From Phoronis australis (Eukaryota > Animalia > Phoronida): a DNA stretch of 64,000 nt. The DNA lies in assembly GCA_002633005.1 (NCBI GenBank), contig NMRA01000150.1:437707-501706 (forward strand). Direction: 5' to 3'. The notes beneath the pieces were generated by a model. That model was given only the letters and a program-made list of their open reading frames with translations, had not been told where the DNA came from and did no database searches. A program made the position numbers and the translations under genes. Below are positions 1,576-58,178 of the stretch, piece by piece; within the stretch, counting starts at the first letter, position 1, and each line of letters starts with the position of its first letter.

Positions 1576-4500
1576 ATGTCTTCGGTCCAACCAGTTCCGT
1601 TCACTGCTGCCTTAGTGGTGAGTTGGTTTAGTTGTATGAGTACATGTATTCCATTTGTTGGTACAATATCATGATTCCAAAGACAGGACTAGCCAGCTAG
1701 CAGCATGACAAGAATCTTAGTCGTCGGCGGTTACGTTGTCGTTGACACCTACACTAACACTAGATAGAAGTAGAACAGAGGTACACCGGCTTAGGAGGCC
1801 GTCTATGTCTTTGGTTTCTTCCATCTCAAACAAATACTCCCTGCATTATCAAACTTTTCTTCTAGCAATCCTTCGTTAAGTTCCCAAAATTGATAACTGA
1901 CCATTTTTAACACTGCATGTGACAGGTGGTATGACGTCTGATATTCCCTGGCGTGTGCAGTGTAAAAATGGTCAGTTACCGATCCTAGGCTAGGAACTGA
2001 ACGAGGGACTACTCTAGAAAAAAGTTTGATAATGCTGGGAGTATTTGTTTAAGTTGATAGGAATTAAAGACATCAGCAGCCTAGCTGCTAAGATGACCCT
2101 CTACACACAAAAGCCATTTATAACAACGTGACTTTGATGTTTTAGTTGGTGGAACTTTATAGACAGTGACCATCTCTTGCAGCTGGCCCCAATAGTAATA
2201 CCGACTACAGTAGTCAGTAGAATCTGTGAAGCCAGGGGCAGATGCCGGATTTTGAGTTGGGGGGGCGGGAAGGGCACAGGAATAACCAGAATTTCGGCAG
2301 ATGTGTTGTGAAATGTGCTTCTGATGAATCATATATGAGCCTCTGTTAGCCACTCGCTAAGGGGCAATTGCCTATTAGCTGAATGGTTAGCACGCTCGTC
2401 GGTTAAATCGGGGTCGCTGGTTTGATTCCCGAGGTTGGGCAAACTCGGCTAGTACGACAATTGGCGTAGTCGGCAAAAGGATGATATACCGATGAAGTGC
2501 TTCACGGAGCCTCGGACCTGAGATAGCACGCTTGATGGTGAACCTAGACCAGGAGTCGAGGACCTTAATGCGAGACAATCTTGGGGTTCATCTGTTGGGC
2601 GGCTATTCTGGGAGGTAAAAATCTTAGAGTAAAATCTTGTGACGTAGTCCAGGAGTAAAATCCTGTGATGAACCCAGGAGTAGAATTCTGTGTTCACCTG
2701 CCAGGTGGCGCGCTTGTTCGTAGGAAAGGGGGTCGTTGCGAAATGTGCTTCCGGTGAATCATATATGAGCCTCTGTTGGCCACTCGCTAAGGGGCAATTG
2801 CCTCTTAGCTCAATGGTTAGCACACTCGTCGGTTAAATCGGGGTCGCTGGTTCGATTCCCGAGGTCTGGCAAACTCTGCTATTACGACAGATGCGCGCAC
2901 CCAGCCTAAAGTGTAGGGGTACAGGGGTCTTGAATTTTTGGGTTTGCGGACCTTTTGACTGAAGAAAAGGTAAACAGGGGGGGCATGGCCCCCTTGGCCC
3001 CCCCCTAAATCTGCCACTGGAAGCTTCTATGTGTAAGAGAACACAATCGCCACTCAAGCTTGAATATAATCTGTTATAATCGTCAATATGATTCGTTTCT
3101 GATCTTTCTGTGGTGTCTTGTGATTTTTCAGTTTTGTGTGTTTGTTTTATTTACACTTCTGGTGGGAGGCTGCTAGCAGTCTTTCAGTGTGCTGTCAGGC
3201 CGGCAGGGATGAGCACCCTGATTGGGTAGCCGTGTTTTAACTGGTGATTACTTCTGGAAGCCTATAGCTAGTGAACCTGTAGGAATACAACAAACCCAAT
3301 CTAGGTGCTCATCCCTGAATCGTGATGGCTGAAAGCCTGTCAGCAGTCTCCACTAGGAGTATAAGTAACACAAAGATTCGGGAAACCAGGCACCTGGTAC
3401 ATCACCTCCAATCATTAATCCCACTCTGTTGCTAACCATCACCTTCTCTAGTAATTGCTGCCCCTTGCTTACCTTCCTCATCTCCCGTTATCACTGCCGT
3501 CTTGTTTACCATCACCTCCTAGTATCGTCATCCCCTTGCTAGCCATCACTTCCTTCCCGCTAACAACGCCCTCTGGGAGCCATCCCCACGTCACTGTGCT
3601 TTTAAGAACTCTTCATTAATTGCAATTGCTCTTGTAAAAATGAACAAAACTGCTGAGTTGTGTTTTGTTTTCATCCTCAGACAAAAATCATGATTAGATT
3701 CTGGTTAATGTATGTACTTATTTGTACATTTAAGTTTGGAATGTTTACTTTTAGGNTCTGTTGGGCGGCTATTCTGGGAGGTAAAAATCCAAGAGTAAAA
3801 TCTTGTGACGTAGTCCAGGAGTAAAATCCTGTGATAAACACAGGAGTAGAATTCTGTGTTCACCTGCCAGGTGGCGCGCTTGTTCGTAGGAAAGGGGATC
3901 GTGGTGAAATGTGCTTCTGATGAATCATATATGAGCCTCTGTTGGCCACTCACTAAGGGGCAATTGTCTATTAGCTGATTGGTTAGCACACTCGTCGCTT
4001 AAATCGGGGTTGCTGGTTCGATTCCCGAGGTCAGGCAAACTCGGCTATTACGACAGATGCGCGCACCCAGCCTAAAGTGTTGGGGTGCAGGGGTCTTGAA
4101 TTTTTGGGTTTGCGGACCTTTTGACTGAAAAAGGTAAACAGGTTTGCTGTTCAGGGCCTATTCATTGTTTATTCACCCCCCACNCTGAGCCCCCTGGTTG
4201 TGCACATGTGCTAGTCAGCGATTCGCACCCAAACTGACAAATGGTATCTGATAGAATTTTAAGGGGGGCATGGCCCCCTTGACCCCCCCTAAATCTACCA
4301 CTGGAAGCATCTATGTGTAGGAGAACACGATCGCCACTCAAGCTTGAATAAAATCTGTTATAATCATCAATATCATTCGTTTCTGATCTTTCTGTGGTGT
4401 CTTGTGATTTTTCAGTTTTGTGTGTTTGTTTTATTTACACTTCTGGTGGGAGGCTGCTAGCAGTCTTTCAGTGTGCAGTCAGGCTGGCAGGGACGAGCAC

Positions 4501-7500
4501 CCTGATTGGGTAGCCGTGTTTTAACTGGTGATTACTTCTGGAAGCCTATAGCTAGTGAACCTGTAGGAATACAACAAACCCAATCTAGGTGCTCATCCCT
4601 GAATCGTGATGGCTGAAAGCCTGTCAGCAGTCTCCACTAGGAGTATAAGTAAGACAAAGATTCGGGGAACCAGGCACCTGCTACATCACCTCCAATCATT
4701 TATCCCACTCTGTTGCTAACCATCACCTTCTCTTGTAATTGCTGCCCCTTGCTTACAATCCTCATCCCCCGTTATCACTGCTGTCTTGTTTACCATCACC
4801 TCCTAGTATCGTCATCCCCTTGCTAGCCATCACTTCCTTCCCGCTAACAACGCCCTCTTGTGAGCCATCTCCACGTCACTGTGCTTTTAAGAACTCTTCA
4901 TTAATTGCAATTGCTCTTGTAAAAATGAACAAAACTGCTGAGTTGTGTTTTGTTTTCATCCTCAGATAAAAATCATGATTAGATTCTGGTTAATGTATGT
5001 ACTTATTTGTGCATTTAAGTTTGGAATGTTTACTTTTAGGCTGGGGCTGGTGCAGGCTTGTCGGTGGACATTGCTCTGTTTCCAATTGACACGGTTAAAA
5101 CAAGATTACAGAGTGCCGAGGGTTTCATTAAGTCAGGAGGCTTCCGTGGACTCTACTCAGGCTTTGCTTCAATTGCTGTCGGATCTGCTCCTTCAGGTTC
5201 TTGTGTCTTCTTTTTTATGATCTTTTCATGCAAATATTTCTTAAAACCAACTGTATTAAAATTTACAAATTCCATCCACAAAACCGAATATTGTAATTGT
5301 AATTTTTAAAAAAAAATCTTTCTTACTGCAGTGCATGTTTTTTTAGCTTCAAAGTGTTTAAATACGTCTTATGATTTTATGTGTTTTATCCGTTTTATTT
5401 GCTCACTGCTATTGGTGCGCCTCCTGTTGTCACTAATCTGACATCTTTGTCCTGTCTAGCTGCCACCTTCTTCTGTGCGTATGAAGCCACCAAGACGATC
5501 ACATCTCAGTTTGTCACCAAGGCCCACCAGGCGCCCCTCCAGCACATGTTTGCTGCCTCACTGGGTGAAGTGGTTAGTGCATTGTTAGTAATAGGCAGCG
5601 AGTAGGAATGTACCTCAAAAAACAGCTTGGACATTGGACGTGCGTTTATCTATGATCCTTCAAAAATGTGTTTTCATTATTTCCACAACTCTATGTTACC
5701 TTCAGAAGTTTTAACATTTCCACTGCAGCTCTATACTGTTATCATTTAACAAGATATTTCAGTGATGACTTTGTTGGAAATAACCAAAGTCACAGTAAGA
5801 CTGCTTTAATGACACAGTATCGCAATTTTGCCCAGACGTATATTCGGTTTCATTTGACGTTTTTGAAAGGTCATTTTTCGGGGAATTCCCAGTATTCCAA
5901 GTTAGGCCTGTAGCTATGCACAGATTTCACTACAGAATAAAGATTATTTGGTTGCAATACAACTTATGGTTTGATTGTGTCAGAGATTATAGATATACAC
6001 ACAAGTTTTTCATTATCAAAATATTAACAATTTTAAGCTATTTATGAAGCAGACGTCTTATCCAGGTGTCTTTTACCTTCTAAAACAGTTTGGGGTAGTG
6101 GGATTTGAATCCACAAGATGCCTTAATCGGGGACCTAACTGCATGGTCTGGTGGGATTCTATGCAACCCAGGATCTTTAGATTGACAGGTGGCAGCTGTA
6201 TCACTGGCCCACTTTGACTCCAAATTACAATGTGAAAAACATGAGTTACTTCCATGAAAAGTCTGATTATGATGCTATGGAGTAACTGTTACCCCTGCCA
6301 GAGGTGTGCAATCTCTAAATGTTGTGGAGGGACTGTGACCCCTGCCAGAGCTGTACACTCTCTAAATGTTATGGAGGGACCGTGACCTTTGCCACAGGTG
6401 TACTCTCTGAATGTGTATTTATTCTTACCAGGTTTATTTATTATGTTATTTTTACTTTTATATTTTCATATGGCAGTTGCCATTACTCGTTGCAGGCATC
6501 CTGCGTGGTTCGTGTGCCAACAGAGGTCATCAAGCAGAGGGCGCAGGCCACGCCAGGAGTGACATCTATGGGTGCACTCAGGAGTACACTTCATGCTGAG
6601 GTATGCGCTCTTGATTCAGTCAAGCATTGTCTTACCAGTGTTGAGCTTACAATATAATCAAGCAGTGTGTCTTACTTGCGTTGGGTTTGCAACAACATAA
6701 CCAAGCATTGACCTTTATCAGTGTTGAGCTTGCAACAATTTAACCAAGCATTGACCTTTATCAGTGTTGAGCTTGCAACAATTTAACCAAGCATTGGCCC
6801 TTATCATTATGAGCTGACAATGAAAAATACACTTGCTAGTGTTGTTTTGACTTAAAAAACAGACAAAAGCTGACCCACCTCCTGATCTCTTAAGCCTCAT
6901 GAATATGGTAATACTTTCCCTCTGTGATAAGTGGCCCTGGACATGAGTGTCAGTGTAAATGTCATGAAACTGTTGTCATGGTGATAATTCGCCCACAATA
7001 CACATGCAGAATTAATCAGGTGTGTCTGAAGAGCCAGGTGTGTGTTCAGGTGTTGTCATGCATGTTTGATCTTAGAGATTGTTTTTGTCATCACTTTTAC
7101 ATGTGCAGTAGTCATATTATTAGTGACTCATGTGTAAGCTATGTCTGGGTAAATTATATCTGTGTCATCATTGTTACATGTGTAATACAGTCATAGTTAA
7201 GCAATAAGAAAGGTACATTGCTAGTAAAAGAGTGGTATCAATAACATGATCAGATTTCATTTGTTATAATTCAAAATGAAGTATAGAAAACACTATTACA
7301 GTTCTGTAATTCATCATTTTGTTTTTGTTTAGTTCAACTTCTGAAGTTATTGAAAAAATCTCATATTTCTGATATCCCCTAATGCAAAATTTGAACATTT
7401 TAAAAAACAATTATTCACATTGTAGTGAAGGGTCTGTTGAAATCCTCTGTTTCAATGAAATTTTGTACAAAAAGATTGCTCTTGAATTGCTGAATAAACC

Positions 7501-16881: not shown

Positions 16882-18911
16882 TTAGTTGCTTAACATAGGC
16901 AACAGGTACAATCCAATGTACAGACCTACACCCACGAACACCAACAACATGAAGCCGATACCGACCCCCAGCGCCCAGTGTGAGAGGGTACGTGCCTTCT
17001 CGCCACTTTCTATTGCTCTGGTCATATTTCCCATTGTGTACTCTCGCTGGCTCTCCAAAGCCTTGATGATGGCGAAAGCTCCAATTGGCCAACAGCAGCA
17101 GAAGGTAACAAAGATGGCGTAAGCCAAGTTATTTGGTGGCGGTGGTGATACCGGACCAGCTACGTATACCACATGGGATGAAGACGGCTGCTGCATGTGC
17201 ACATAGGGTTCACCAGCCCCTGTGGTTAGGGGGTAACTGGGTGGTGGGCCATTAGTCTTGTTGTCAAGTGGATAGTCTACACAAGAACAAAAAAGTAAAT
17301 AAATTGAGAGCACAGTAATATGGTCCAGCAACACTCACATTGCTGCAAGTAACTTTTTAGCATACCTTTGGAGCTTGTCTATGTCTTGAAATCCTTCCAA
17401 CTCGGACAAATACTTTCATTGGTAATTAAGATTTCTTTCCAATACGGTAGGTTAATCTTGTAAGTAAATGTACAGTGGTTTGCTGAATAAGACTAGTCTT
17501 AAAATATCTTTGTTTACCCAAACCTGACCGTACTTTTAAAAGGATACCAAACCCGGTTTTGGAGTATTAACAGATACTAAAAACGACACTCCCATCCAGT
17601 TCTCTGAAACAACGTAATGCTCTGTAGCCCTCAACAACCCTCAAAAGTTTGGAGGAAAATCTGAAACCTCCTTTCAAAGGCTGCTAAATGGACAAGCGTG
17701 ACATACGCTTTTAGTGAATTACATGGCAACTGTGGGAAAATACCACTCACTATAATGTCTTATCTGTGGCATAGGGAGTATGAGTTTTTAGTCGATTTTT
17801 GCCTTTGACTTGGAAGATTGATGACAATGATGCATTAGCATATGATAGAACGAGGATTGGTGGAAATTATCAAAACAAGGTTTAGTATCCGTTTAACATC
17901 TAGGAAGGTAGGTAAGTAATTTCTTCATACTTCATAAATTCTGAGCTTTTTGAACTTTTGTTTTTTTTCACTTTTGGAAGAAGTTGCTTCAATCGCCATG
18001 ATTAAGGTGAATCACAAAGTCTTATCACCTTTTGGGACAGCTCTATCTGGTGGTAATTGGGGAACCACAAGATTTGAGTAGTTGTTGTTTTGTACTCACT
18101 GATTGGTTCTTCTTGGAGTTGCATCTATTATTTTTCAACCAATGAGCGACGTACTTTTAAACTTCTTTGAAAGCTTAACTGGATAAACACTTAGCAATTT
18201 TGTAGCTGTGTGAAGGATTTTTGTCATTTTTTGTGACAGACAATGAACCAAGTTGCCGGAAAGGATTAGTTCTCCATCATCAATTGAGTAAAAAATGGTT
18301 ACAGCAATTTTACATAGCTATAAATAAAAAGTCAAGTAATTTCGTGAATAAAAATTTTTAAGTCAGCCAGTTTTTCGCGGGTCAGTCGAGTTCGGGGAGT
18401 CAAACTCTAATTTTATTTAGGCCTTAGGAGGTTTATATTACAAATACATCTATAACTTACAACTTACCTGGGTGTACCTGGTTTACTTTGTAATGAGGTA
18501 CGTTACTTCTCCAACTAACAACTTTCAGGAGCACACCTGGTTTACTTTGTAATGAGGTACATTAATTACTTCTCCAACTAACAGCTTTCAGGAGCACACC
18601 TGGTTTACTTTGTAATGAGGTACATTACTTCTCCAACTAACAACTTTCAGGAGCACACCTGGTTTACTTTGTAATGAGGTACATTACTTTTCCAGCTAAC
18701 AACTTTCAGGAGCACACCTGGCTTACTGTGCAAGGAGGTATACATTACAAGTACATCTATAACTTACAAATTACCTGAGTGCACCTGGTTTACTTTGTAA
18801 TGAGGTATACATTACAAGTACATCTATAACTAACAACTTACCTGAGTACATCTGGTTTGTTGCGTAAGGAGGCGGATTCTCAAACTGTTGTGCTTCTGCT
18901 TGCTTTGACAT
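16882..18911 (-). CDS. CD225/dispanin family membrane protein (PRRT1/TMEM233/IFITM-like), 154 aa
   Basis: Exons 18911-18842 (MSKQAEAQQFENPPPYATNQMYS, CAG|GTAAGT) and 17276-16882 (ttgtgtag|). Pro-rich N-terminus, then PPPNNLAYAIFVTFCCCWPIGAFAIIKA...GNMTRAIESGEKARTLSHWALGVG (CD225 signature) and a C-terminal TM helix. A possible upstream non-coding exon has a donor near 20950. Confidence 0.9.
17537..17895. mobile_element. TTAA-flanked non-autonomous element (Kolobok-like), family copy 1, nested in an older MITE ending ...tttaggcctta (~18426)
   Basis: ttaa-aaggataccaaaccc...ggtttagtatccgt-ttaa. The same sequence occurs in the opposite orientation at 23597-23947 and 57255-57687. Confidence 0.75.
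18437..18870. repeat. ~60-67-bp tandem repeat, ~7 units, derived from the CD225 exon end plus 5' splice site
   Basis: On the minus strand units read cctcattacaaagtaaaccaggtgcactcag|gtaa, versus the true exon end cctccttacgcaacaaaccagatgtactcag|gtaagt. Confidence 0.8.
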
Positions 18912-26430: not shown

Positions 26431-29400
26431 TCACGCCACATTCTCCTGACAAGCACCTGCAGTGAAGACCAAGTCGTCCAGGTGCACCGTTCCTTCATTA
26501 TTATCCACGCGGTCTTCAGTTACTTGAAGCTACAAATGAATAGTATAGTAGAGTAACTAACGTTGGTGCGAGAAACAAGGCTGTGCATTGACTTACCGAC
26601 CACACATTGTAAATATTGGACAATAGTACGAGTACGAAGAGGTGAAGGTTTATTTCTCATTGTCAATCAATTGGATGGTATTATTGTTGAATGATTTCAT
26701 TTGTAACCTATTTCTCTACTAGCCATTACCCTGTGGTTTACGGGGAGTAGGCAGAGGCGTCAAGAGAAAGAGTGAGCCCGGGGCAACACGACACTGGGTT
26801 CCTGATCCAATATCCAACACGACACTGGGCTCCTGATCCAATACCCAACACGACACTGGGCTCCTGATCCAATAACCAACACGACACTGGGTTCCTGATC
26901 CAATAACGAACGCGACACTGGGCTCCTGATCCAATACCCAACACGACGACTCCTGATCCAATACCCAACACCACACTGGGCTCCTGGTCCAACACCCAAC
27001 AATAACTTACCGCACATGCATCCCCCGTTTAAGGTGTTATTCAAGCCGTACAACTAAAAATGACTTACTAAAAACATGCAATTATTTTTGTTTAATTCTT
27101 CATTTTCATAAAAACTTGATTCACTATTCGTGTTCTGCATAGTCCTACTACGCATTATGTGTAGCTTTGTAGGCTTTCGCAGCACCAAATAGTTCAGCGA
27201 TTGGGAAAAAATCCAATTTCCTTGAATGAGTGGATTCCGCAGTTCCTAAATGAGCCAGCCAATTCTAGCACGTGGTGGAACGGAGACCATTCTTCGCTCT
27301 TGCGATAACACTGAATGAGCGATCTCCTTGAGCAACTGGCGCAGGCAGGCAACAGAAAAATTCTCAGAGAAATGCAAAGGTTTAGGAACAGTGTTTCAAG
27401 TTTTAGTTCTTACAAAGCTGAAGCAGAAACAAAAGTGCATCTCTGAGATTGGCTGCATGTACCGTCATCAAGTGGTGAAGATACTGGAATACATCAACGC
27501 TATACAAGCAGCAGAGTCGTTGAACATGTTCTCGTAGATGCTTCAAATCTAGGCTTGGGTATCTCCACGACACACCAAATATCCTCTCTAACTGCTAAAC
27601 TGACTGACAACGTGTAGCTAAACTCGCTATGACAGCGTCCATAATGCAAATGAAGACTTGTCTTGTGAATTTATCCTCTACAGTAATGNCCCAACAATAA
27701 CTTCCCGCACATGCATCCCCCATTTAAGGTGTTATTCAAGCCGTACAACTAAAAATGACTTACTAAAAACATGCAATTATTTTTTGTTTAATTCTTCATT
27801 TTCATAAAAACTTGATTCACTATTCGTGTTCTGCATAGTCCTACTACGCATTATGTGTAGCTTTGTAGGCTTTCGCACCAAAAAGTTCAGCGATTGGGAT
27901 AAAATCCAATTTCCTTGAATGAGTGGATTCCGCAGTTCCTAAATGAGCCAGCCAATTCTAGCACGTGGTGGAACGGAGAACATTCTTCGCTCTTGCGATA
28001 ACACTGAATGAGCGATCTCCCTGAGCAACTGGCGCAGGCAGGCAACAGAAAAATTCTCAGAGAAATGCAAAGGTTTAGGAACAGTGTTTCAAGTTTTAGT
28101 TCTTACAAAGCTGAAGCAGAAACAAAGGTGCATCTCTGAGATTGGCTGCATGTACCGTCATCAAGTGGTGAAGATACTGGAATACATCAACGCTATACAA
28201 GCAGCAGAGTCGTTGAACATGTTCTCGTAGATGCTTCAAATCTAGGCTTGGGTATCTCCACGACACACCAAATATCCTCTCTAACTGCTAAACTGACTGA
28301 CAACGTGTAGCTAAACTCGCTATGACAGCGTCCATAATGCAAATGAAGACTTGTCTTGTGAATTTATCCTCTACAGTAATGACCTTCTTTGTCTCGTTGG
28401 CATAAACGTTCTCGTTTGCTTCTTTTCTCACAGTACTAAGTCTGCTCTCAGCTTCAATGCCCCCATTTGTCTCTCAAGTCATTGAAATTGTTAAGTATAG
28501 ACCGTTTATGTTTACTACTTTACTGTCTAAGGTGGTATCTCTTGTTTGTAGCACTTTGTTGCTCATGGCAATTGTTGAAGGAACCTTTAGGCATGAAGCG
28601 GTCTTGGTCATTCACTCACCATTTGATCAAATATAGGTCTGGCCTTGTTCCTGTAGACAAATTCAGCTTGATGACGTCCTCAATGTCTCTCTTCAAGGAG
28701 GGGAAAGGTACAGCAAACGGTCTCAAGCTGTCCACTGTCGCTGACCAACTTGTGTCTAACATGTTGCGGATAGCTATAGGCCTACTAACGTGGTGTGATG
28801 GAACTGAACAGTTCCCTAACAGTTCAAAAAGGCAATAGCCTGTGAGAAACTTTCAGCATCATGGCTTCCACACAGGTTAAGACTATGACAAGCACAGTGT
28901 GAGAATGTGACCACAAAAGACTTCTTCTACATGTTCTTCCATGGTGATCCACTTCAAGTAACACATTTTGTGATTAGCACTCCATGGATTATTCTAAAAT
29001 CCCTTCGACCCCCACACGCCACGACCTCCTCGACCCACGATTCCCTCGACCCACGGCCCCCTCGACCCACAAATCCCACGATCCACTACCCCCCTCGACC
29101 CACGACCTGTGGCAATAGATGTATCTTTGCGCTTTTTACACATTTCATCATCATATTACATCGCAAGACTTACCTACACGCAAATATGCTCTGACTCAAG
29201 TCTGGAGTTAAGAACAGAGCACAGGCGCTCGAATTTCCCGATGACTCATAACCATATGAGATGAGATATGTGTCTCGAAATATCGCTTTTTAAAATATGT
29301 TACCTTCTGATGTCGTTTGGATTTTTGTTGCACTTGCGATGTAAAGACAAGATCTTTATTTAGAGAGTTGGAAAGAACTGAGATTAAACTAGTAAAAACA

Positions 29401-32400: not shown

Positions 32401-35400
32401 AAAGTTTCAAATGCGTTGGGTTCTTGCCATACGCCGCGACGAAGGAAAATATGTCCGTGTAAAATTCATAACTGTTTTCGAATCATAATTTGTCGCATCT
32501 CGGAGTGGATGCCGCCATAGCAACGAGGACCGGAGAATCTTCGGCCAGCCAGACTGTGTTTTCATGACTATGGGTTGAAGCGCGATGCATTTTTCTTTAC
32601 AAAAAGGACAGGGCCCTCAATTCCTCAATTTTGGGGCCAAGTATGGGCCCTATTCCCCTCTTAAAAATATTGAAAAATCACGCGAAATTCCCGGCCACGA
32701 GGCCTAAGAATCCCATTTGTGATTGAAAATTTCTCTCCAACGGTTCAAATCACCTGTGACCACAGAGGTGACAATNTATTAGCCAGGATTTTGTCCCAGA
32801 AAATTGCGCTCCTGAGCTGCCAAATGGAATCTGGGAGAATTTTAGGGGGGGGCTGGGGCATAGCCCCTTGGCTCCCCTCTAAATCCGCCAATGTGTTCTG
32901 TCCAGTTAACTGAAATTGAGCTCTAAAACGAGGTTATGCTTTGGACGAAAGAATTAGGTGTTTTAATTTTAAAATTCAACTTGGTCGAGATTGATATTTA
33001 AAAAATATAACACATGAAATAGAAGTAATTATTAAAACCAAGAAAGCATAATTGATGGTCATATAATTTTTATTTTCGTCTGCGAGCCTAGTTTTTTATC
33101 GTAATCAAAATACATATTTAATAACATCAAGTATCCGCATTTCAGGTCAATGACAAATCAACTGTTAGTCCCGGTAGTGCCTACCTCACCAGGACCTAGG
33201 CTATGCTTGAAGCTAATAGGCCTACTCTTGGTCTACAAATTAAACCAGATGAGACTAATTGCACATGACAGCAAAATGCTATGAGCCACCACTGTCGAAT
33301 ATATCTTCAACTCGTCAACAATACGACCAGATCACCTGGTTCGTGTAGAAAGCATTTTTATCAAGAATTTAGTAGAAGAAACGTAACCCTGCATTCAGCA
33401 TGATACCTAATCCGTCACTACGATCGCCGCAATTTAGTCATGTTTACTTTTCATGTTTCGAACCTAGTTTTCCGGAAAAAACTATATCCTTTCGTCAGAC
33501 AACTCTTTGGTGCATTGACTTGTTCTATAACTGTATTTTTCTACGTCTCTGTGGTTAATTATTGACACATTTTTTAAGATTTGATATTCAGGTTGGACTC
33601 CAAAGACCGGCCATTTAACTCACGCAATGTAAATTTCCGCTTTGTTTATCGCAGTGAGCCTCGCTTTGGATGTTAATGTCCGCCGCGTGAATAGAGTCTA
33701 TGTATGATATCCATGCGACCTGTTTTGTTTTATCCAACAAAGACGCAACAAAGAAAAACGATAGTAGCGTCCCATAAGCGACAACCACGCGACGCGCTTA
33801 TACGCCCCGCCCATAGGTCTTACAAGTTAAAAAATAGCTTGCGACCTCACTGCATAAGTGGTGTTTCGGTCCCCGGGTGTCCAGTCCGATCCCTGGATTT
33901 CCTCTTTTAAATGTCGAGGTTCGTGTTTTAGGGCTGGTTAGCTGTTTTGAAGGTGCGGCATTGTGAGTCTGTTTCGGACTTCAGAATATCTGTTTTACAC
34001 CAGCGTTCCAAATTTGATGGAACACCTTGTGATAGCTAGCACATTGAGATTTCAGTACAATGGCGGATTCATAGCAACAAAAATATTCCTTTGAGTTAAC
34101 CCGTACATTACAGTCGTCTCTGCAGTAATGCACAAAAGTGCAACAAAACTGGTAACGACGAGCAGGGGCACGAATTGTTGACGACGAAGGAGGGGACGCG
34201 ACAGTTAAACGCAACGCCAGAACTCGCACTCCCTCATTCATCCATGACGGGGAACTGCATCGAAGCAACGTCATATTCCACTGTAGGCAATTACATCGCC
34301 CTGGATGCTGCAGGCATTCAGGGGCGGTAGTACATCCCCACAAAAAGTTACTCATTTCAAAATACAACAAATAAAATCAAATGAACCATGCATATAGGAA
34401 CATGGAGTGATAATTAACACATACCATGACTCTGGATACAATTAAGTCAGCAAAACCTGAGCGAATCGATGATTTGTCGCGGTTTGCTCGAGTTTCTCTT
34501 ACCGGGTGCCATTTTGAGGAAGTTACGTGAAATCACGCATGTTGACGAATAAAAAGTCCAAGGGAAACAAATCTTACAAATTTCAACTGATACCTTCTCA
34601 TGCTATTTTGCAAGTGTCACGCGCTAGTGTCATACGCTTCGCTCAGTCTCACGCCTCGCTGGTTCGCTGCGTGCCGCTAGGTGGGGCGGTAGCGGCGCCA
34701 GCACGCAGGTATCACTTAATTTTCCTCGGTAAATTTTTTTACACCGACGTTTCTGATTGGCTAGTCGAATTCTCAACAGGCAGCGCTTTACGCAAACAAA
34801 TTGGCATGGCTGATGGAATGAAGTCATGTAAATGTGGTCTGTTGTACAGACAAATCGGTGCTTAAAATTTATGTTCAGGAAATGTGAAGCCTGGAAATTG
34901 TGATTGTGACTTTTCGGAATGCATCTTTCTACTGTCGATGACTTTTGTTTATGATGGTGTACTGTATTGATACAGTATGAATAACACACCTGTTAAATCG
35001 GCCAGATATGTGTTTATTGTAAATGTATGTGCTTCAAGCACGCGGCTATCACTGTAGAAACGAAATAGTTGCTGCGACGCCACTGGCATGAAAAGGCTAA
35101 AAATCGTTCACAGTCCGTCATTTTTCACGGTGTTGTAAAGCTAAACAATGACTGCCGAGGTTACGTTGACCAATGCTAAAGCGCGTGCCACTGCGTGATA
35201 ACTGCTACCTGGTTGGGCTAAGCACGCAGGGAACCAGCGACAGTCTCGCGCTGGCTCTTTGCCTAACTCACGTGACTCAGTTGACCTACTTAAGGTTAGA
35301 TCACGCGCGTGGTGAAAAAGTTAACGGCAACCAAAAAAGTGGAGTTAGAACTCTTCACTAAAGTCACCTCAATTCTCACAACTAAGCTTCATCGAAGATA

Positions 35401-41400: not shown

Positions 41401-44400
41401 GTGCAGAGTTAAAGCGACCTATTTTGTAGTTGTTTCTTCAAACATGATGCTTGGATTTATGAAACTTTAAAAAAAGAATTTGAGTTAGTTTTGTAAATAG
41501 CCATTTTTGCTACTACACCAGAATTGTCATATTTTATAACCACATCTAAGTGATCATGCTTCGATTCTTAATGCTTTCAAACTTAATTTGAAAATTGCAA
41601 CATTGTAACAACAGTATATATTGCGTCCTGAGTTGAAAGAGCCACCAGCATTGTGAAATCTTCGGGTGTCTCTCTATAACTATCACCTATCAACCAATCA
41701 CATGTGTCTCGTTCATTAAAATGGGCGTCATTAGTAATTATTTGAAATTTCCCTTACAATGTCGGTGTCCAAACTGCAGAAGTTCTGATTGACAGTGGAC
41801 GTCTAACTCATACATTGGAGCGTCGTTGCCAGGGAGACCAGAGTTCTACAAGGGTGTCTACTGAATGACAAGCTTCGACAGCAATCTATACTGGATCAGT
41901 CAATCGCACAAGTGTCATGGCCGACCTCCTTTAGTGGAGAACGTACTAGATACCATGTGTGCAGATAAACGAGAGTAGCTTCGCGTGAGAAATCTTCGAA
42001 CGGGCAATTGTGTTTTAACCCTTAATCTAGAAAATTGTCCCTGTCTGACTATGGTTAACACAAAATGCCGAAAATTTGAAGATGGAAACCAGAGTCGAAT
42101 GCCCTGGAAGAGTTGACCCAATACTATACAGATAGCTCTTTCAAAAGTGTAGGGCTACCTGGCGTGCGTTCAGTAGACGCTAGGACCTACGCTAGGACCT
42201 AGCCAAAAGCTAGTCAAGGTCACGTGCTCTTATTTTATATACACTGCAATATCTCGCGTAATCTCGCTAAGTCTCTCTTTTAAGCTAGGTCCTAGCGTTA
42301 CTGAACGGGAGGACTGGTCATTTTTCTTCACAAACCATGCGCGCATCCGGAGGGGAGCGCCCCCACTCCATTTGGCGAAGTGGGCAAAAAGGTCCACCTC
42401 AGAGAAACAAAAAGTCCGAGAAAACGAGGCAAAAGTCCAGTAAGAAGGCTGGAATTCGGCGCGAATGCACGATTCATAGCTTTGTTTGTAGTACCCCTTT
42501 TCATTTTGTAGTCCCCGTTTTTTAGTCCCCGTTGTTTTTAGTAAAAGGCCCACATTCTCAAAAATTCGAGCCCCCTATACTATATTTCAGGCTAGGTGCG
42601 CGCATGCAAACACTAACAGTTATGTTGTCATTGCTGCGTGCAGTGTGTAAATTCCGTTTTTTGAAGATTTATGGAAAGCGATTCATTGATCAAGTGTTGC
42701 ATGCATTCTGATTACAATGCAAATCTTGTTTTATAGTTTAAATTTCCAGATTTCTGACATTTTTTAAAATTATTTGAAAACAGTTTCCTTACCTAAGACA
42801 AATTTATAGACGTGCTCCTTGCTTTGTGCTCTGACAGAAAGGTAGTCTCTGTTTCCCAGCGTGTTAGTGAATTTCAGATACGCTTTACACCCCATGCGTC
42901 CAAAGAATTTGTCTTGCGCTTTGATGTTGGCCGTAAAATTGAAAAGTTTCACCAACGTCGCGTTTTGAAGTGGTTCAACTGCGTCTGACTGGAATATCAC
43001 CTCTTTATTGCTGTGTGCCTTCTTACTCGTTATGTACGTCGTACGACTGTAAAATATGGATTAGACGAGTTCAAGTGCGTACTTTTAGTGAAGAACATGA
43101 ACATGGTGAGTTTTTATTTTGATACTTTGCTGGAAGAATATCTCAAGGAAAACAGCCCTGTTGCGTTCTTATCTATGAGAGACATATGCTAGTACTTATC
43201 GAACTGGTTACTCAATTTTTCGACAGCCTATTTGAATATTTTACAGATTTGGTCCGAAGGACAAACATTCCGAAGGCTTCCGTGTTCAGCTTATAATTCA
43301 GGCGAACTCTATGTCCAAAAAGTACCAATTTGCATGAATACCCATATCTGCGAAAACCCTTTGCGGATTTTTTCTGTAGTGTGAAGACTTATATGTTCCG
43401 TCCACTCAAAAGTCCGACCGTTGAATATTTATCCAACTATTTATTTTATCTTCTCGGTAACCACTTCAGTCAATCCGCCGATTTCGAAGTGGGCACAATC
43501 GGAAATTTTTGCATCATTTAAAAAATAAAAAACAGATATCTACAATTAAATTGTTTGTAGTGTTCAAGTAAATTAAATGCACAAATACTAACATAAACAA
43601 ATAAAAATGCTGGTGTTGAAGGGTGTTAAACCACACACAAAGCGAGCGAGGAAGTCACAACAAACTGAGGATTACAGCCTTGAACGGCCTACCAACACCA
43701 TGTATTTCTTCTTAAAGACGAGGAAATTGGACCATAGATGGTGACAGTCCCCAGCCCGTTGTAAGCGTGTACCTCTGTAGGCAAGTATTCTTTTGTTGCG
43801 GTTGGTCGTTGATCTTCCATATCCCATGCAGTCTGTAACACACGCTCCTCTACTGTAATTGGGGAATTTCCAACTGCTATTTTTAGGTTGGTCAACCTTA
43901 AATTTGCGTATTCGAAAGTGACGCTCGTTGGCATTTACGACTCATTTACCAAAATTTGGTCGTTAGAGCTCTTTGGTTTACACTTTAACATTAGCCTCTT
44001 TTTCGTATATGTTCTCCGGCCCTGGTTTTGAAGATGTTCTGGTAGGTATGTTACACAGTTGTCCTATATGACGTCACGACAGCCAAAATGATGTAAGACT
44101 AGTATACAGGGTCAGGTGAATAACCAAATCTACGTATTTCCTGACTGTAAAAATTAGAAAACGCTGAGAAACCTTTCTACACACGCATGCGACAAGCTCC
44201 ATCCCGGCATATCAGTCATCGCATGCTATTTGTATTTATGTCAGGCGGTTGCAGTTTAGAATAGTTGACAATGCTTTTACAGACGACGCAGTCAGTCTCT
44301 GTTTGGTTTCAATCGTCATGCCTATTCTTTTCTTCGATTAGGGTGTCGTTGATATGTTTGATAGTTTTAGCAGCAGAGAAGCACGGTTGTGTCAACTGCA

Positions 44401-52590: not shown

Positions 52591-52714
52591 ATGTAGAGTG
52601 TTGTGTAACGAGTTACACCGTTGTAAAGTTATTTTCTCCGTTCCTCCTTCACATATATACTGGACCTCAATGAACCTTTAGTTGTTTGTGTGTTAAACCT
52701 TAAGTCCAAGGAGT

Positions 52715-55700
52715 ATGTTGAAGTCGGCAATGCCACTGTATGCCCGCTGTTTGGGTCACCTGAGGGTAGAAAACTGCTGTCGATCACTCGCCTCGGTCAC
52801 AGCACCTGCGATGAGACTAGTCTTACGTGAAGACGAAGCGTCTGTATCCTGTAATTTACCGAACATTGCGTATCATAATTTCTGTATCTCGAATAGAGTG
52901 GATAAGCGTTTCCAGCACAGTGCTGCTGTCAAAGGTGGCAACCGAAAGCAAGGCTTTCTGTCGCGCTTGCTGGAGTCTACGGGTTTCAAGGCAGAGCGGA
53001 TGCGGTATCAAAAATCAGTTCTAAAAGTTGCTGGCTGTAATCTGTATGTGTGTTTAACAACATTTGTGAACTATGACGAGTTTATGAAAGAATTTGGTTT
53101 GCCCGACACTCTTAATTCCTGGTTTAGAGTTAATGAGCTTCATATGTGGCTGACATCAGTTCGACTCATGCAAGAGGTACGTTACTTTAAGGCAACTTGT
53201 AAGGGGGCTGTTTTTGGGTTCCTGATAAAACATGTGAGGCTGTTTGGCACTAGTCGGATATAATAGAGCCTTACTTATGCAAAATAAATCATTAAATGTA
53301 CTCCACAACTCCACATGAATGATTTTGGTACCGTTGCTATTCCTCAGACATGTGGCTATCTGCCAATATCCATTTCATGACCCTCAATTACTCTGGTTGA
53401 AAACTATGGTATTGCGAAGTTGGTCCACTTCAGCCATGCAGATTATCAATTCGGCAGCCATTTCAGGGAACTTACTATACCTACCGCCATCTATTGGTGA
53501 TCTGCTACAACACGTGCTGTTCCTTTTTCACCAGTCTTGAGTGGGTCACTTTGGTGGGCCTCTGTGACTTTAATGTAGTGGACCGATCAAGATGAAACTT
53601 GGGGTCTGACCATTTGGAGGATTGGCCTTTCAAAAAACAGAAAATAAAATTGAAGACAAGAAGTTTTTTGACTGAAAAAAATTTTGTCTCCAATTCTTCT
53701 ACCTTAATGTAGTGGACCGATCAAGATGAAACTTGGGGTCTGACCATTTGGAGGATTGGCCTTTCAAAAAACAGAAAATAAAATTGAAGACAAGAAGTTT
53801 TTTGACTGAAAAAAATTTTGTCTCCAATTCTTTTAATTTCAGAGTGACATAGAATGTTGAGAAACTAAAGCCCACCAAGTTTGAGTTCGATCGGATCATT
53901 AATAAGGTCACACAGTTTGATCAAATTTGAAAAGCGTCATTTTTAGACCTTGTAGCCGTGTCTGGATACAGGGATGAGTTGAAATTATTACTGGAGAAGC
54001 CATTTGTATAACACACTTTATTCGGTGCAGCATTGGCAAACGATAGAGTTACAGGTGAGGCAAAAAAGTGTCTGAACAAGCGTTAAAGGGTGAAACCGAA
54101 CAAGCGGTTATCTGCAATAAAGAAAAACACACAGTCTGAGTACTCAGCAAGTACTATATATATCAGAACGTTAAAAAGACTAGCAACAAAGACTATATTA
54201 CAGGCCTAACAAATACTACCTCGCTAACAATACACAATTAACTGGAACCCGTACTATCTATTCTACAACTGGGATCCATTACCATGCACAAACAACTACC
54301 TAACTGCGACCCATAACTATTTATCCTATGTACCGGGTACCGCTCAACATATACGCCAAACAAGCAGCTGAATGAAATTATACATTAAACAACAACTATA
54401 CACGCTCTGAACTTAGCTAGTAGATACACATGAGTACAACATGCTATGCCATAATACTCAGTACTTACAACAGTTTGGCCGACAGTCTGTGTTTAAGCTA
54501 AAAGTTCCAGCATCCGAGGAAAACACAAGATTCGCGTTACAGATCTTGTCAACGAATGCCGCTATACACGAGAAACGCTAGTCACCAAAACCCGCGTAAC
54601 ATACAGAGGCTAATACCTAATAATAGCCGACCGGTCAAGCTCATTAGACTATGCAAATGCTGTTGTAACCACTGGAATGAACCGGCTTACTAAAAGAAAC
54701 CAAATCACAGCGGCGAAAGATGTACTGCTACCTCGAAAGAAAATAAACAGCGTGATGAGTAAATGAAACACAATGACAGTAATGACTTTTTAGCACCAGA
54801 AAAGATTTTACCCCAATTTTAAAACTTATTTCATTGTTGGATAGCCCTTTACTCACTGACTCCAAAAACCTAGGTTGACACTTCTGGTGAGCCCTAATAA
54901 GTTCACATCGAGGGATCGAAGTTAGAAAATTGGGAGAGTCTGTGACTTTGACCTTAAATCTTGATCCTGAAAGAGAGAGTAACCTACTAATAATACACGT
55001 TTGGATACTTGTATTTTAACCATGCTTCAAAAATGTCTCGGTTCGGTAGTCTTCAGGTCACTGGTCATGAACATGCGAGTTCGCAAACTATGGCTCATTT
55101 TGACACAACTTTTCTGATATTTTGAAGGGGGTGGGTCAATTTTGGGCACTCCTGGGCCCTTACTAAGGCCGGGAAAAGTACAATAATTACATTTCTGGAG
55201 AGGAGAGACAGGGGGCTATCAGATGCACAAATAATTTTTGAAATCGAAAACAAAATAATTTTGGACCCCAAGAAGGACCCTTGGGTGGGTCACTTTGACC
55301 TTAGATAGAGGACCGATCAAGCTGAAACTTGGGGGCTGACCGTTTGGAAGATTGACCTTTCAATTAAAAACAGAAACTTTAAAATTGAAGACAAAATGTT
55401 TTTCAACCGAAAAAACCCTAAGCCAAGGGTTTTTTGAGGACCAAAAATTTTTTTGTCTCCAATTTCAAAAATTCTTTAGATCGACGTGGAGTGCTGAGAA
55501 ACTAAACCCCACCAACTTTGAGTTCAATCGGATCACTAATAAGGTCACATGGCAAGATCAAAGTCAAAAAACGTCATTTTTAGACTTTTTCGCGCCTTAA
55601 AAATTTTTGACTGATTTCAAAACTTCTTTTTTTGTTGGATAGCCCTTTACTTACTGACTCCAAAAACATAAGTCACCACTTATGGTGAACCCTAATGAAG

Positions 55701-58178
55701 TCTCAACCAGGGATCAAATTTGGAAAATTGGGGGAGTCAGCACATAGAAAATTTTGAGAATTAGGCGCAATCTACGCATCAACTTGGTCAGAAATGTAAT
55801 GTTTTATTTCTTGATCAATTAAGAAGTCTGGTTGTAAGCGAAAGTTAATACAATCCAGCATTTATTAAAAGGTTTAGAAGTAGTTTTGAAAAATCTGTAA
55901 TCTGTGAGATGCTCGTACCTCGAATCTATAACGATCACTGCCATTGGCGTACTCACAAATTAAATGGCAACTGAGGTTTGTGTTACATACAGGGCAGGGA
56001 GGCAAACGCAGAATAACTGCAATGACTTTCGACATGGAGAGGAAGTTTTTTGCCTGAGAGTCTCACAGCTTGACAAGTTTAGATTATAGTATACATATCC
56101 ATGCAAATAGTGTGGTGTGACATCATCATGACATCATGATGACATGATGATGATGAGGAGAGAGTCTCACTGCTTGACAGGTTTATGCTTTAAATTCAGG
56201 CTGCTGATGGAACATTCATGAGGAAATGTTTTGTGGAAGCCATGTGGGAGGACATGACTAACAGAGTGAAATACCTGGGTGATACTTCAGCTGCACACCG
56301 TCGCAAGTCAATAGGCTTACTCCATACACAGTTTAAAGGTGAGTTCACTCCTGTTCATGGATACATCAAGTTACCGTTACTGTACATTGAGGGAAAAATT
56401 TGAACTCGAGCCTTAAAATGTTTCACTATAATCCTTTACAAAAATTTTGTGTGAGAATTTTGCTTTGATCATGATTTTTTTAAGAAAAACTAAACCCCCA
56501 CATAAAATATTTTTTTTATTGTACACAGAGAAACATGTCTCATGTTTTTGATTTGCGCTAAGACAATGGAGTTCAGCTGTCAAACTGGCTGTGGGAGTAC
56601 CTCGGAACTGACTGTGAGCGTACCCAGAGCTGGTCATGGGAGTATGCCTATGAGTGAGGTCGGGGAAAATCGTCCAATCCTGCCAGAGCTGGCTATCGAA
56701 ATTATTATTGGCCTTCTACCATTTGTTGTCTTTATAACAAATTGGGATTCACTATTACTGGGCGCCGATTTATTACAAATTGGACCATAGTGTATGTCCC
56801 AGTTTATTCCAAGATGTTTTGTTAACATTAGCTTTCTATTGTCACAATAGTTTCCATAAAACTCCATAAATAAGTGCATGTGGTTATGTGTGAAGTAGTT
56901 TTCCTTGCAATATTTTTCTTCTGAAATGTTCCACTTATAAGCACAAGCATCAAAGCTCCACAGGCAGGTTTGGGATTGCACCTTAACTGGTGATTTTTAA
57001 TGCTACATTTGTTACACTGCAACTTGTGACTAGTCTACATGGCTATTTGAAGACCGTACATTTGTGTAAATCGACGCAGAATTTGAATATTTTTTGCCCA
57101 ATATGCTCGGTCCTGGTGATGACGTTGTTCTGGTCTCTGAAATAGGTTTGATGGACTGCACTATGCTTCCCTTGGGTTAGACTTTGAATGTGATGGGTAT
57201 AGGATAAAGTAAGGCCAAACTGTTACTCAATTTTATTGCATCTGGTGGCCTGAGTTAAAAGGATACTAAACCCTTTTTTGATTCAACCAATCCTCGTTTT
57301 GTCACCTGCTAATACATCATTGACATTAATCTTGAAAGGTAAATGCAAACAATAACAATGTGTTGTTTGTCGGGTAAAATGGCGGCTTCGAACCGAAGGT
57401 GTGTCAAGAATGCTGCGTTCTGGTTGGTCAGCTAAGCCATCACTTGCGACAGATCAATTGGATATTACGGCCCTTGGTGGGTGGTCTTTTCCCGCAGTTG
57501 CTTTATAATTCGCTAAAAGTGTAAGCCACGCTTGCTCATTTAGCAAACTTTGAAAGTTTTCAAATTTTCTTCCAAATTTAGAGGGTTGTTTGGGGTTACA
57601 GAGCGTTATTTTGTTTCAGAGAACTGAATGGGAAACTCTTTTCTAGAATCTGTTTATAGGTCAAGACTGGGTTTGGTATCTTTTTAAGCAATCAAAGTGC
57701 ATCACTGAAACATGTTGCATAAAATGTCTGGTTTAATGAATGCTTTTATTGTGATGTGTTGCAGTTGTTACATGTCAACTTTCTCAAGTATTTGTGTGAT
57801 TATTCTCATGATCTCTGTGTTATCTTCTTCATATCACTCCACCTGTGTGTTTCAATTTACAATATGTCGTCTGCTCCTCTCACTTCAGCCTCCCTGCTGG
57901 CTTATGATGAGGGTCTCCTAGGTGATGATCATGTGCTCGCAGGCGCCATCTGGAGGACATTCTTTGAAATGGACTGTGAAGACATTAGGAAAGTGGAGAG
58001 ACTGGTGGTGTACATACGTCGACAGCTGGCTTATTTAGAGTTGCAGGACTCGACATTACTTCTCAAACGAGGACTGCTACCTTTCTTGGAACTTAATCAG
58101 GAGAGCGAGAGTACAGAAAAAATACAGGCTGTCTTGACCGAGATAGAAAAAAGAAATGTTTCTGAGCCCACAGAGTAG
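52715..58178 (+). CDS. UQCC1: Ubiquinol-cytochrome c reductase complex assembly factor 1 (CBP3 homolog), 296 aa
   Basis: Exons 52715-53176, 56200-56338, 57889-58178 (891 nt, GT-AG). Motifs FGLPDTLNSWFRVNELHMWL..VRL, MWEDM..R, AYDEGLLGDDHVLAGAIWRTFF, LVVYIRRQ. Arg/Leu/Ser-rich presequence-like N-terminus. Confidence 0.95.
53545..55745. repeat. Internally repetitive interspersed element in UQCC1 intron 1, with a 133-bp exact duplication (~53570-53830) and an unrelated insert (~53950-54785)
   Basis: Recurring gggtcactttgacc / ggaccgatcaagctgaaacttgggg blocks. 53705-53950 matches 55300-55585, and 54790-54940 matches 55585-55740. Confidence 0.6.
57255..57687. mobile_element. TTAA-flanked non-autonomous element (Kolobok-like), copy 3, longer variant
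   Basis: ttaa-aaggatactaaaccc...gggtttggtatcttt-ttaa, with an extra internal segment homologous to 40630-40750. Confidence 0.75.

What the first reader, a model, noticed from the sequence alone, without database searches (positions are those of the whole stretch)
2300..2893. Complete miniature LTR retrotransposon whose LTRs are built around a tRNA-Asn-like Pol III promoter
Seen: two 156-bp LTRs (2304-2459, 2734-2889) with TG...CA-type ends, although the 3' LTR now starts CG. There is a 4-bp TSD (GATG), a PBS two bases after the 5' LTR (TGGCGTAGTCGGCA..AGGAT) and a PPT (AGGAAAGGGGG) abutting the 3' LTR. The ~275-bp interior is non-coding, with short ccaggagta(a/g)aat repeats. Each LTR contains A box TAGCTCAATGG, a GTT anticodon-like loop and B box GGTTCGATTCC, intact in the 3' LTR and with single mismatches in the 5' LTR. 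Known: the PBS is the complement of the 3' end of tRNA-Ser. Plant Cassandra TRIMs carry 5S rRNA in their LTRs, and from memory tRNA-carrying TRIMs with 4-bp TSDs in animals were named Helenus. Inference: a hybrid SINE/LTR parasite transcribed by Pol III from a captured tRNA-Asn promoter, primed by a different tRNA (Ser), and mobilised in trans by a Gypsy-type partner. Annotation would likely miscall it as tRNA pseudogenes.
Basis: partly seen in the sequence, partly recalled or inferred. Interest (0 to 1): 0.85.

Follow-up and report, generated by a model that had tools for sequence, protein, structure and literature searches.

The report
Helenus mini-retrotransposon with conserved RNA hairpin
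This is a real, 586-base, gene-less jumping element whose end repeats carry a decayed tRNA gene that likely serves as its promoter; it is a new family of a kind described in 2024 (Helenus), and it has a predicted RNA hairpin, seen by eye in related fish, clam and ribbon-worm elements but not described there, that may help these elements copy themselves.

Summary
The anatomy is confirmed: 156-bp LTRs (13 differences), GATG target duplication, tRNA-Ser primer site, polypurine tract, non-coding interior, A/B boxes in each LTR. It sits inside a high-copy MITE-like repeat in an intron of a mitochondrial-carrier gene. Reads of other copies of that repeat show the empty site with one GATG. Contigs show a copy with another flank, and reads show a more abundant sister LTR with a second 4-bp duplication. 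The neighbour at 3757-4055 shares the flank and is most likely an allele joined at an assembly gap. It meets every sequence criterion of animal Helenus (Kojima 2024); no published consensus has this primer site. 'tRNA-Asn' is not supported: the cloverleaf is broken and the nearest annotated tRNAs were Lys/Met. Pol III transcription and a Gypsy helper remain inferred. New here: the 25 bases upstream of tRNA +1 are an inverted copy of tRNA +1..+24, folding into a 21-pair hairpin that only the 3' LTR's RNA copy could form. By eye, 53 of 76 published non-insect animal Helenus LTRs carry it with changed but still pairing sequence. The paper does not mention it. It suggests one old lineage and a conserved replication signal.

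The parts
2300..2303 (+). Left target-site duplication GATG
   Evidence: empty site with one GATG in reads of other host-repeat copies
2304..2459 (+). 5' LTR, 156 bp, TG..CA
2344..2392 (+). Inverted repeat in 5' LTR (outer stem 2344-2352:2384-2392, inner stem 2356-2367:2368-2379); axis one base upstream of tRNA +1 (2369)
   Evidence: 20 of 21 positions pair, z -4.9
2369..2442 (+). Decayed tRNA-like segment of 5' LTR: A box 2376-2386, GTT at 2402-2404, B box 2419-2429 with one change from consensus at 2423
2462..2475 (+). Primer-binding site, complementary to 14 3'-terminal bases of tRNA-Ser
2460..2733 (+). Non-coding interior, 274 bp
2623..2692 (+). Three 19-nt repeats, each a predicted 5-bp stem with a 6-nt purine-rich loop (first stem damaged in this copy, whole in the allele); candidate packaging signal
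2722..2732 (+). Polypurine tract
   Evidence: PPT-to-TG-LTR joints in 4 contigs
2734..2889 (+). 3' LTR, 156 bp, CG..CA; A box 2806-2816, B box 2849-2859
2774..2822 (+). Hairpin in 3' LTR, 21 of 21 positions pair (17 Watson-Crick, 4 G.U)
   Evidence: z -5.9, 0 of 300 shuffles
2890..2893 (+). Right target-site duplication GATG
2233..3019 (.). Host MITE-like repeat (197 bp without the insert) with terminal inverted repeats and GAAGC on both sides; the TRIM lies inside it
   Evidence: loose read ends at 2233 and 3019
3757..4059 (+). Partial second copy (interior, PPT, 3' LTR, GATG) with the same right flank, starting at an N; most likely the other allele
1576..5196 (+). Host gene context: likely first coding exon 1576-1617 and exon 5040-5196 of a mitochondrial carrier gene (SLC25A26-like by recall); element is in the intron, same strand
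   Evidence: (PF00153, E 5.8e-10)

Best explanation
It is a gene-less miniature LTR retrotransposon of the animal Helenus type, likely transcribed by RNA polymerase III from the decayed tRNA in its 5' LTR, likely primed by host tRNA-Ser and likely copied and inserted by the proteins of an autonomous Gypsy element. Shown: two LTRs, PBS, PPT, 4-bp duplication, empty site, dispersed relatives. Inferred cycle: Pol III starts near tRNA +1 (2369) and meets no run of four T until 2935; the RNA is packaged (the three interior stem-loops are candidate signals); tRNA-Ser primes at 2462; plus strand starts at the PPT; integration duplicates 4 bp. The hairpin's left arm lies upstream of +1, so it would be in the RNA only at the 3' LTR, where it can pair with its own R segment or with the identical 5' end of the RNA. 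I take end-to-end pairing that aids minus-strand transfer as its most likely role (about 0.35; dimer/packaging 0.25, shielding from tRNA processing 0.2, terminator 0.1, neutral relic 0.1). This copy is probably old and silent: its 5' B box is changed.
For: Anatomy. Empty site: 91 (X5) and 124 (X6) reads run from 2303 into sequence like 2894 onward, and a contig joint 2305->2902 with 6 letters between removes net 590 = 586+4. Dispersed copy: a 2330-nt contig holds interior plus 3' LTR, then about 1900 unlike bases. Second 4-bp duplication: GCCC before TG (123 reads) and after CA (96 reads) of a sister LTR in X7. Helenus definition, 4-bp TSD in animals and Gypsy inference: PMC10886601. Hairpin: z -4.9, -5.9, -3.9 in the three copies, sense strand folds better than antisense in 3 of 3; axis at +1; its span is where related LTRs pile up most (2345-2389); by eye in 17 of 18 vertebrate, 33 of 51 bivalve, 3 of 3 nemertean published LTRs. 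U3 arm pairs with 5' R at -26.8 and 3' R at -29.8 kcal/mol. Precedent for 5'-3' pairing in Ty1/Ty3: PMC4974528.
Against: No sign of an independent transcript: in three RNA-seq runs 93-95% of laid reads run on into unlike sequence, interior depth is 0-8 reads and no start or end pile-up appears; the libraries are unspecified and may lose Pol III RNA. No helper was found; no genome was available and 50 of 75 window ORFs scanned gave no retrotransposon domain. Lack of T4 is weak evidence (497 of 2000 shuffles also lack it). 23 of 76 published non-insect animal LTRs lack the hairpin, so it is not required for all Helenus. The cross-phylum comparison is by eye, not computed. Local pairing is slightly stronger than the long-range option. 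Host phylum could not be fixed.
Confidence: 0.85

Rival explanations
1. The element is Helenus, but the hairpin works as a dimerisation or packaging palindrome (two RNAs pair through the self-complementary arm), like Ty1 PAL or the retroviral dimer initiation site.
For: 24-nt core self-duplex -43, -32, -22 kcal/mol; the central 4-6 bases stay self-complementary while differing among published families (by eye); PAL sequences proposed for Ty1 dimers.
Against: Any hairpin can self-dimerise; the outer stem also pairs, which fits an intramolecular fold; the axis at tRNA +1 is not needed for this role.
Confidence: 0.25
2. The hairpin shields the 3' tRNA-like copy from RNase P/Z, or marks the RNA's 3' end only in the 3' LTR.
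For: Axis sits at the position where a pre-tRNA leader is cut (RNase P site recalled). The 7 bivalve families predicted as intact tRNA (Fig. S1) all lack the hairpin (by eye). The sister family has four T in the anticodon loop.
Against: The cloverleaf is already broken in this family. Structure alone did not terminate Pol III in human cells (abstract of 10.1101/2020.09.11.294140) and this family has no T4 run.
Confidence: 0.3
3. An ordinary Pol II TRIM that carries a dead SINE or tRNA fragment; boxes and inverted repeat are relics (for example of a reverse-transcriptase snap-back) without function.
For: No Pol III transcript seen; no tRNA model hit; inverted repeats of 24 nt with 11 of 12 pairs occur 4 times in the window.
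Against: Boxes are kept while stems decayed, and the same arm is kept with compensatory changes in fish, coelacanth, bivalve and nemertean families (by eye); a relic would not keep pairing.
Confidence: 0.1
4. A local duplication or assembly artefact, not a retrotransposon insertion.
For: A second copy 1.2 kb away shares the flank and begins at an N; the 3' LTR differs from its allele more than the flanks do (13/156 vs 31/1006, Fisher p 0.005), so some mosaic assembly or gene conversion is possible.
Against: Empty site, copy with another flank and second 4-bp duplication in reads; PBS and PPT at canonical places.
Confidence: 0.02

Closest known systems
Animal Helenus (TRIMp3; Kojima 2024, PMC10886601), especially hairpin-bearing families such as Helenus-5_PeMa, Helenus-1_LiLo, LTR-11_DR, LTR1_LCh
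   Same: Under 1 kb, two LTRs with tRNA-derived A/B boxes, PBS, PPT, 4-bp TSD, no coding; LTR 156 and total 586 within the published range; same inverted repeat before box A (by eye).
   Different: PBS core absent from all published consensus sequences (0 hits); published Ser-primed bivalve families use other Ser sequences; LTR-specific words absent; no T run after box B, whereas many published LTRs have one (by eye); longer interior with three stem-loop repeats.
Cassandra and Ajax (5S rRNA TRIMs)
   Same: Pol III-type internal promoter in the LTRs of a TRIM; Cassandra is reported to fold into a conserved hairpin.
   Different: tRNA not 5S (no 5S hit in Rfam); Ajax has 5-bp TSD and Leu primer; the hairpin here is a local antisense copy of the tRNA 5' part.
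tRNA-derived SINE2
   Same: A/B box head with decayed cloverleaf.
   Different: LTR pair, PBS, PPT and fixed 4-bp TSD; no tail.
biv-TRIM (PMC6934838)
   Same: Invertebrate TRIM with inverted repeats.
   Different: biv-TRIM lacks a canonical PBS and its hairpin is in the interior.
Ty1/Ty3 end-to-end RNA pairing (CYC5-CYC3; PMC4974528)
   Same: Model for how complementarity between RNA ends aids reverse transcription.
   Different: Autonomous yeast elements with experimental proof; here only predicted and the arm is antisense to the RNA's very 5' end.

Membership tests
Helenus (animal) | TRIM: short (<1 kb), two LTRs, no protein | tested here: met
   586 bp, 156-bp LTRs; no Pfam hit
Helenus (animal) | PBS and PPT at the ends of the interior | tested here: met
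Helenus (animal) | tRNA-derived sequence in the LTR with boxes A (TRGCY..YGG) and B (GGTTC) | tested here: met
   weak blastn hits fall on annotated tRNA genes (26 of the 30 listed); no Rfam/ARAGORN call at default
Helenus (animal) | 4-bp target-site duplication | tested here: met
   GATG with empty site; GCCC at a sister LTR
Helenus (animal) | Interspersed multi-copy family | tested here: met
   contig with different 3' flank; interior variants in up to 19 contigs; copy number not measurable
Helenus (animal) | Transcription by Pol III (expected, not validated in the paper) | tested here: inconclusive
   RNA-seq shows mainly read-through, no start pile-up
Helenus (animal) | Mobilisation by a Gypsy element sharing the PBS | not testable with these tools
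   no genome held
Functional tRNA-Asn gene | Cloverleaf, U33, tRNA model score | tested here: not met
Cassandra / Ajax | 5S rRNA sequence in LTR | tested here: not met
   no 5S hit at E<=10
Retrozyme | Hammerhead ribozyme in LTR (definition recalled) | tested here: not met
   no ribozyme hit at E<=10
SINE2 | Single tRNA head, LINE-like tail, no LTR/PBS/PPT | tested here: not met

The most novel reading that the evidence does not exclude
Most vertebrate, bivalve and nemertean Helenus elements, and this family, descend from one lineage older than the protostome-deuterostome split (or spread horizontally), marked by an undescribed RNA switch: an antisense copy of the tRNA 5' end placed just upstream of the Pol III start, which makes the two LTR copies structurally different in the RNA and drives end-to-end pairing for strand transfer. 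This would replace the published view of repeated independent origins and give Pol III LTR elements a concrete replication mechanism.
Probability: 0.35. Interest if true: 0.7.

Novelty: new member of a known kind. Interest (0 to 1): 0.45.

Why it matters
As an element it extends Helenus by one family (plus an abundant sister) with a new primer site. The broader point is the hairpin: how a Pol III-driven LTR element makes a usable template, and whether animal Helenus arose once or many times, are open in the 2024 paper. A pairing-conserved structure centred on tRNA +1 is a homology marker across phyla, points to where the RNA starts, and can be tested directly by covariation analysis, structure probing and in vitro strand-transfer assays.

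Tried and rejected
No whole genome for copy counting or helper search. Pattern scans of metagenome, prokaryote-genome and viral contigs gave 1, 0 and 0 hits; the one hit (L001) is a 24-nt chance match without LTR. No RNA holder listed by the run index. Host phylum not resolved: 1 hit at 46% identity, none, and Atlas clusters led by Chordata or Mollusca. Earlier scan notes: none. Rfam: 3 chance-level hits. Relaxed ARAGORN gives many spurious calls. LTR divergence (K2P 0.089) rejected as a clock because the 5' LTR and the allele's 3' LTR share states that the 3' LTR lacks. Summed contig depth not used as copy number. A literature search for a Gypsy with this primer site found nothing useful. One search was a wrong-frame translation and is not used.

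Full report
Observation. The LTRs differ at 13 of 156 positions. The PBS equals the first 14 bases of an antisense template for human tRNA-Ser printed in PMC3299991 (one passage seen). Each LTR has an A box and a B box at tRNA spacing; a full consensus pair occurs twice in the window and never in 100 shuffles (box consensus recalled, and matching the motifs given in PMC10886601). There is no run of four T on the plus strand inside the element, but a quarter of shuffles also lack one.

Context. The element lies in an intron of a mitochondrial-carrier gene (PF00153; likely exons 1576-1617 and 5040-5196), inside a 197-bp repeat with terminal inverted repeats and GAAGC on both sides. A partial second copy at 3757-4055 has the same right flank and begins at an N; flanks are about 97% identical. 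The same pattern of a tandem duplicate around an N occurs at 27689, so this is most likely the other allele joined at a gap. It neither counts as an independent insertion nor refutes one.

Is it a retrotransposon insertion? No genome was held, so I used public runs of the host (organism A; 4 DNA holders from one sample, possibly the source of the assembly, and 3 raw RNA runs from other samples; 5 of the 8 runs were laid). Reads of other copies of the host repeat go from 2303 straight into sequence like 2894 onward (91 reads in X5, 124 in X6), and one contig joint removes net 590 bases, the element plus one GATG. A 2330-nt contig holds a diverged interior and 3' LTR followed by about 1900 unlike bases. 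Four contigs join the PPT to an LTR starting with TG. A related, more abundant LTR shares the LTR ends and the PBS; in X7 it has GCCC before its TG (123 reads) and after its CA (96 reads), a second 4-bp duplication if both belong to one locus. Summed depths are not copy numbers; they say only that the interior is multi-copy and the LTR core far more so.

The tRNA part. By numbering from box A, GTT is at 34-36, but 33 is G and the D, anticodon, T and acceptor stems are broken. ARAGORN finds nothing at default and calls Leu when relaxed; Rfam gives no tRNA hit; 26 of the 30 best weak phage hits are annotated tRNA-Lys or tRNA-Met (bacterial-type tRNAs are an imperfect reference). So tRNA origin holds, Asn does not. 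Reads show that the 5' LTR's A box is the majority form and that its B box is the altered one, so this copy's own promoter is probably weak. RNA-seq shows mainly LTR pieces inside other transcripts (93-95% of laid reads run on into unlike sequence), 0-8 reads over the interior and no pile-up of ends; that does not test Pol III.

Membership. PMC10886601 (seen: main text parts 1-4 of 6, legends and tables, keyword search of the whole text, supplement parts 1 and 5-11 of 11 plus keyword search of the whole file; figures not seen) defines Helenus as TRIMs with tRNA-derived LTR sequence, 4-bp TSD in animals and inferred Gypsy helpers. All sequence criteria are met. The PBS core and LTR-specific words are absent from the published set, so this is a new family. 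The host phylum is unresolved, so a range extension cannot be claimed.

The hairpin. The 25 bases upstream of tRNA +1 are an inverted copy of +1..+24, with the axis between 2367 and 2368. Of 21 positions, 20, 21 and 19 pair in the three copies, with z -4.9, -5.9 and -3.9; the sense strand folds better than the antisense in all three. Non-Watson-Crick changes are G.U at 6 distinct positions (one from reads) against 1 A.C, which leans to RNA-level pairing (hand count, p about 0.06). The span where most related LTRs still align, 2345-2389, is the hairpin. Reading the published LTRs by eye, the inner stem ending at the start of box A is present in 17 of 18 vertebrate, 33 of 51 bivalve, 3 of 3 nemertean, 0 of 3 brachiopod and 0 of 1 ctenophore families (53 of 76; a few are borderline), with different self-complementary centres (such as AATT, TTAA, ACGT, GTAC, GATC, CATG, TGCA). 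I checked the outer stem by eye in a handful (zebrafish, carp, milkfish, sturgeon, coelacanth, one scallop) and it pairs with changed letters. The 7 bivalve families predicted as intact tRNA all lack it. The paper's text has no 'hairpin', 'palindrom' or 'inverted', and searches and passages of PMC12859917, PMC13570524, PMC6934838 and PMC7215508 gave no description of it; subscription papers and Repbase notes were not searchable.

Mechanism. Inferred: Pol III starts near +1, so the left arm is present only in the 3' LTR's RNA copy. It can pair locally (-29.8) or with the RNA's own 5' end (-26.8 kcal/mol). Pairing with the 5' end would hold the two ends together and leave the 3' R free for the strong-stop DNA, as end-to-end pairing aids Ty1 and Ty3 (PMC4974528, section 3 and passages seen). 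Rivals: dimer or packaging palindrome; shielding from tRNA processing; terminator (weak, since structure alone did not terminate Pol III; abstract only); relic. An axis at +1 also fits an origin by snap-back copying at the RNA 5' end, which would be indirect evidence for the start site. The three interior repeats each fold into a small stem-loop (z -2.9 here, -3.9 in the allele) and are candidate packaging signals.

Verdict. A real new family of a known kind, confidence 0.85. The undescribed, pairing-conserved hairpin lifts interest to 0.45; it rests on folding of three copies and an uncomputed cross-phylum comparison.

Noticed in passing
window 2233-3019: High-copy 197-bp MITE-like repeat with short terminal inverted repeats and an apparent 5-bp duplication (GAAGC); superfamily not assigned; partial relatives at 32855-32893 and 42543-42605.
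   Followed up: partly
window 2591-3755 / 3757-5040 and 26995-27691 / 27690-28384: Tandem near-identical blocks separated by a single N, most likely alleles joined at assembly gaps.
   Followed up: partly
reads laid on window 2300-2500: A more abundant sister LTR family with the same PBS; it has four T in the anticodon loop, a possible Pol III terminator that this family lacks.
   Followed up: partly
window 2734-2889 vs 3900-4055 vs 2304-2459: All three LTRs differ pairwise at 13 positions; the allele's 3' LTR shares 6 states with the 5' LTR against the 3' LTR, hinting at gene conversion or mosaic assembly.
   Followed up: partly
PMC10886601 supplement parts 7-9: Several wasp Helenus LTRs have a different hairpin whose right arm reaches tRNA +1 (by eye, not counted), possibly an analogous structure.
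   Followed up: no
window 1796-2082 and 3204-3317: Two further inverted-repeat elements in the same intron; the first is high-copy in reads.
   Followed up: no
window 4143-4262: About 120 extra bases, including an N, inside the allele's copy of the MITE-like repeat.
   Followed up: no
window 16885-17334 (-), 52697-58175 (+): Exons of a CD225-family gene and of a ubiquinol-cytochrome c chaperone gene.
   Followed up: no
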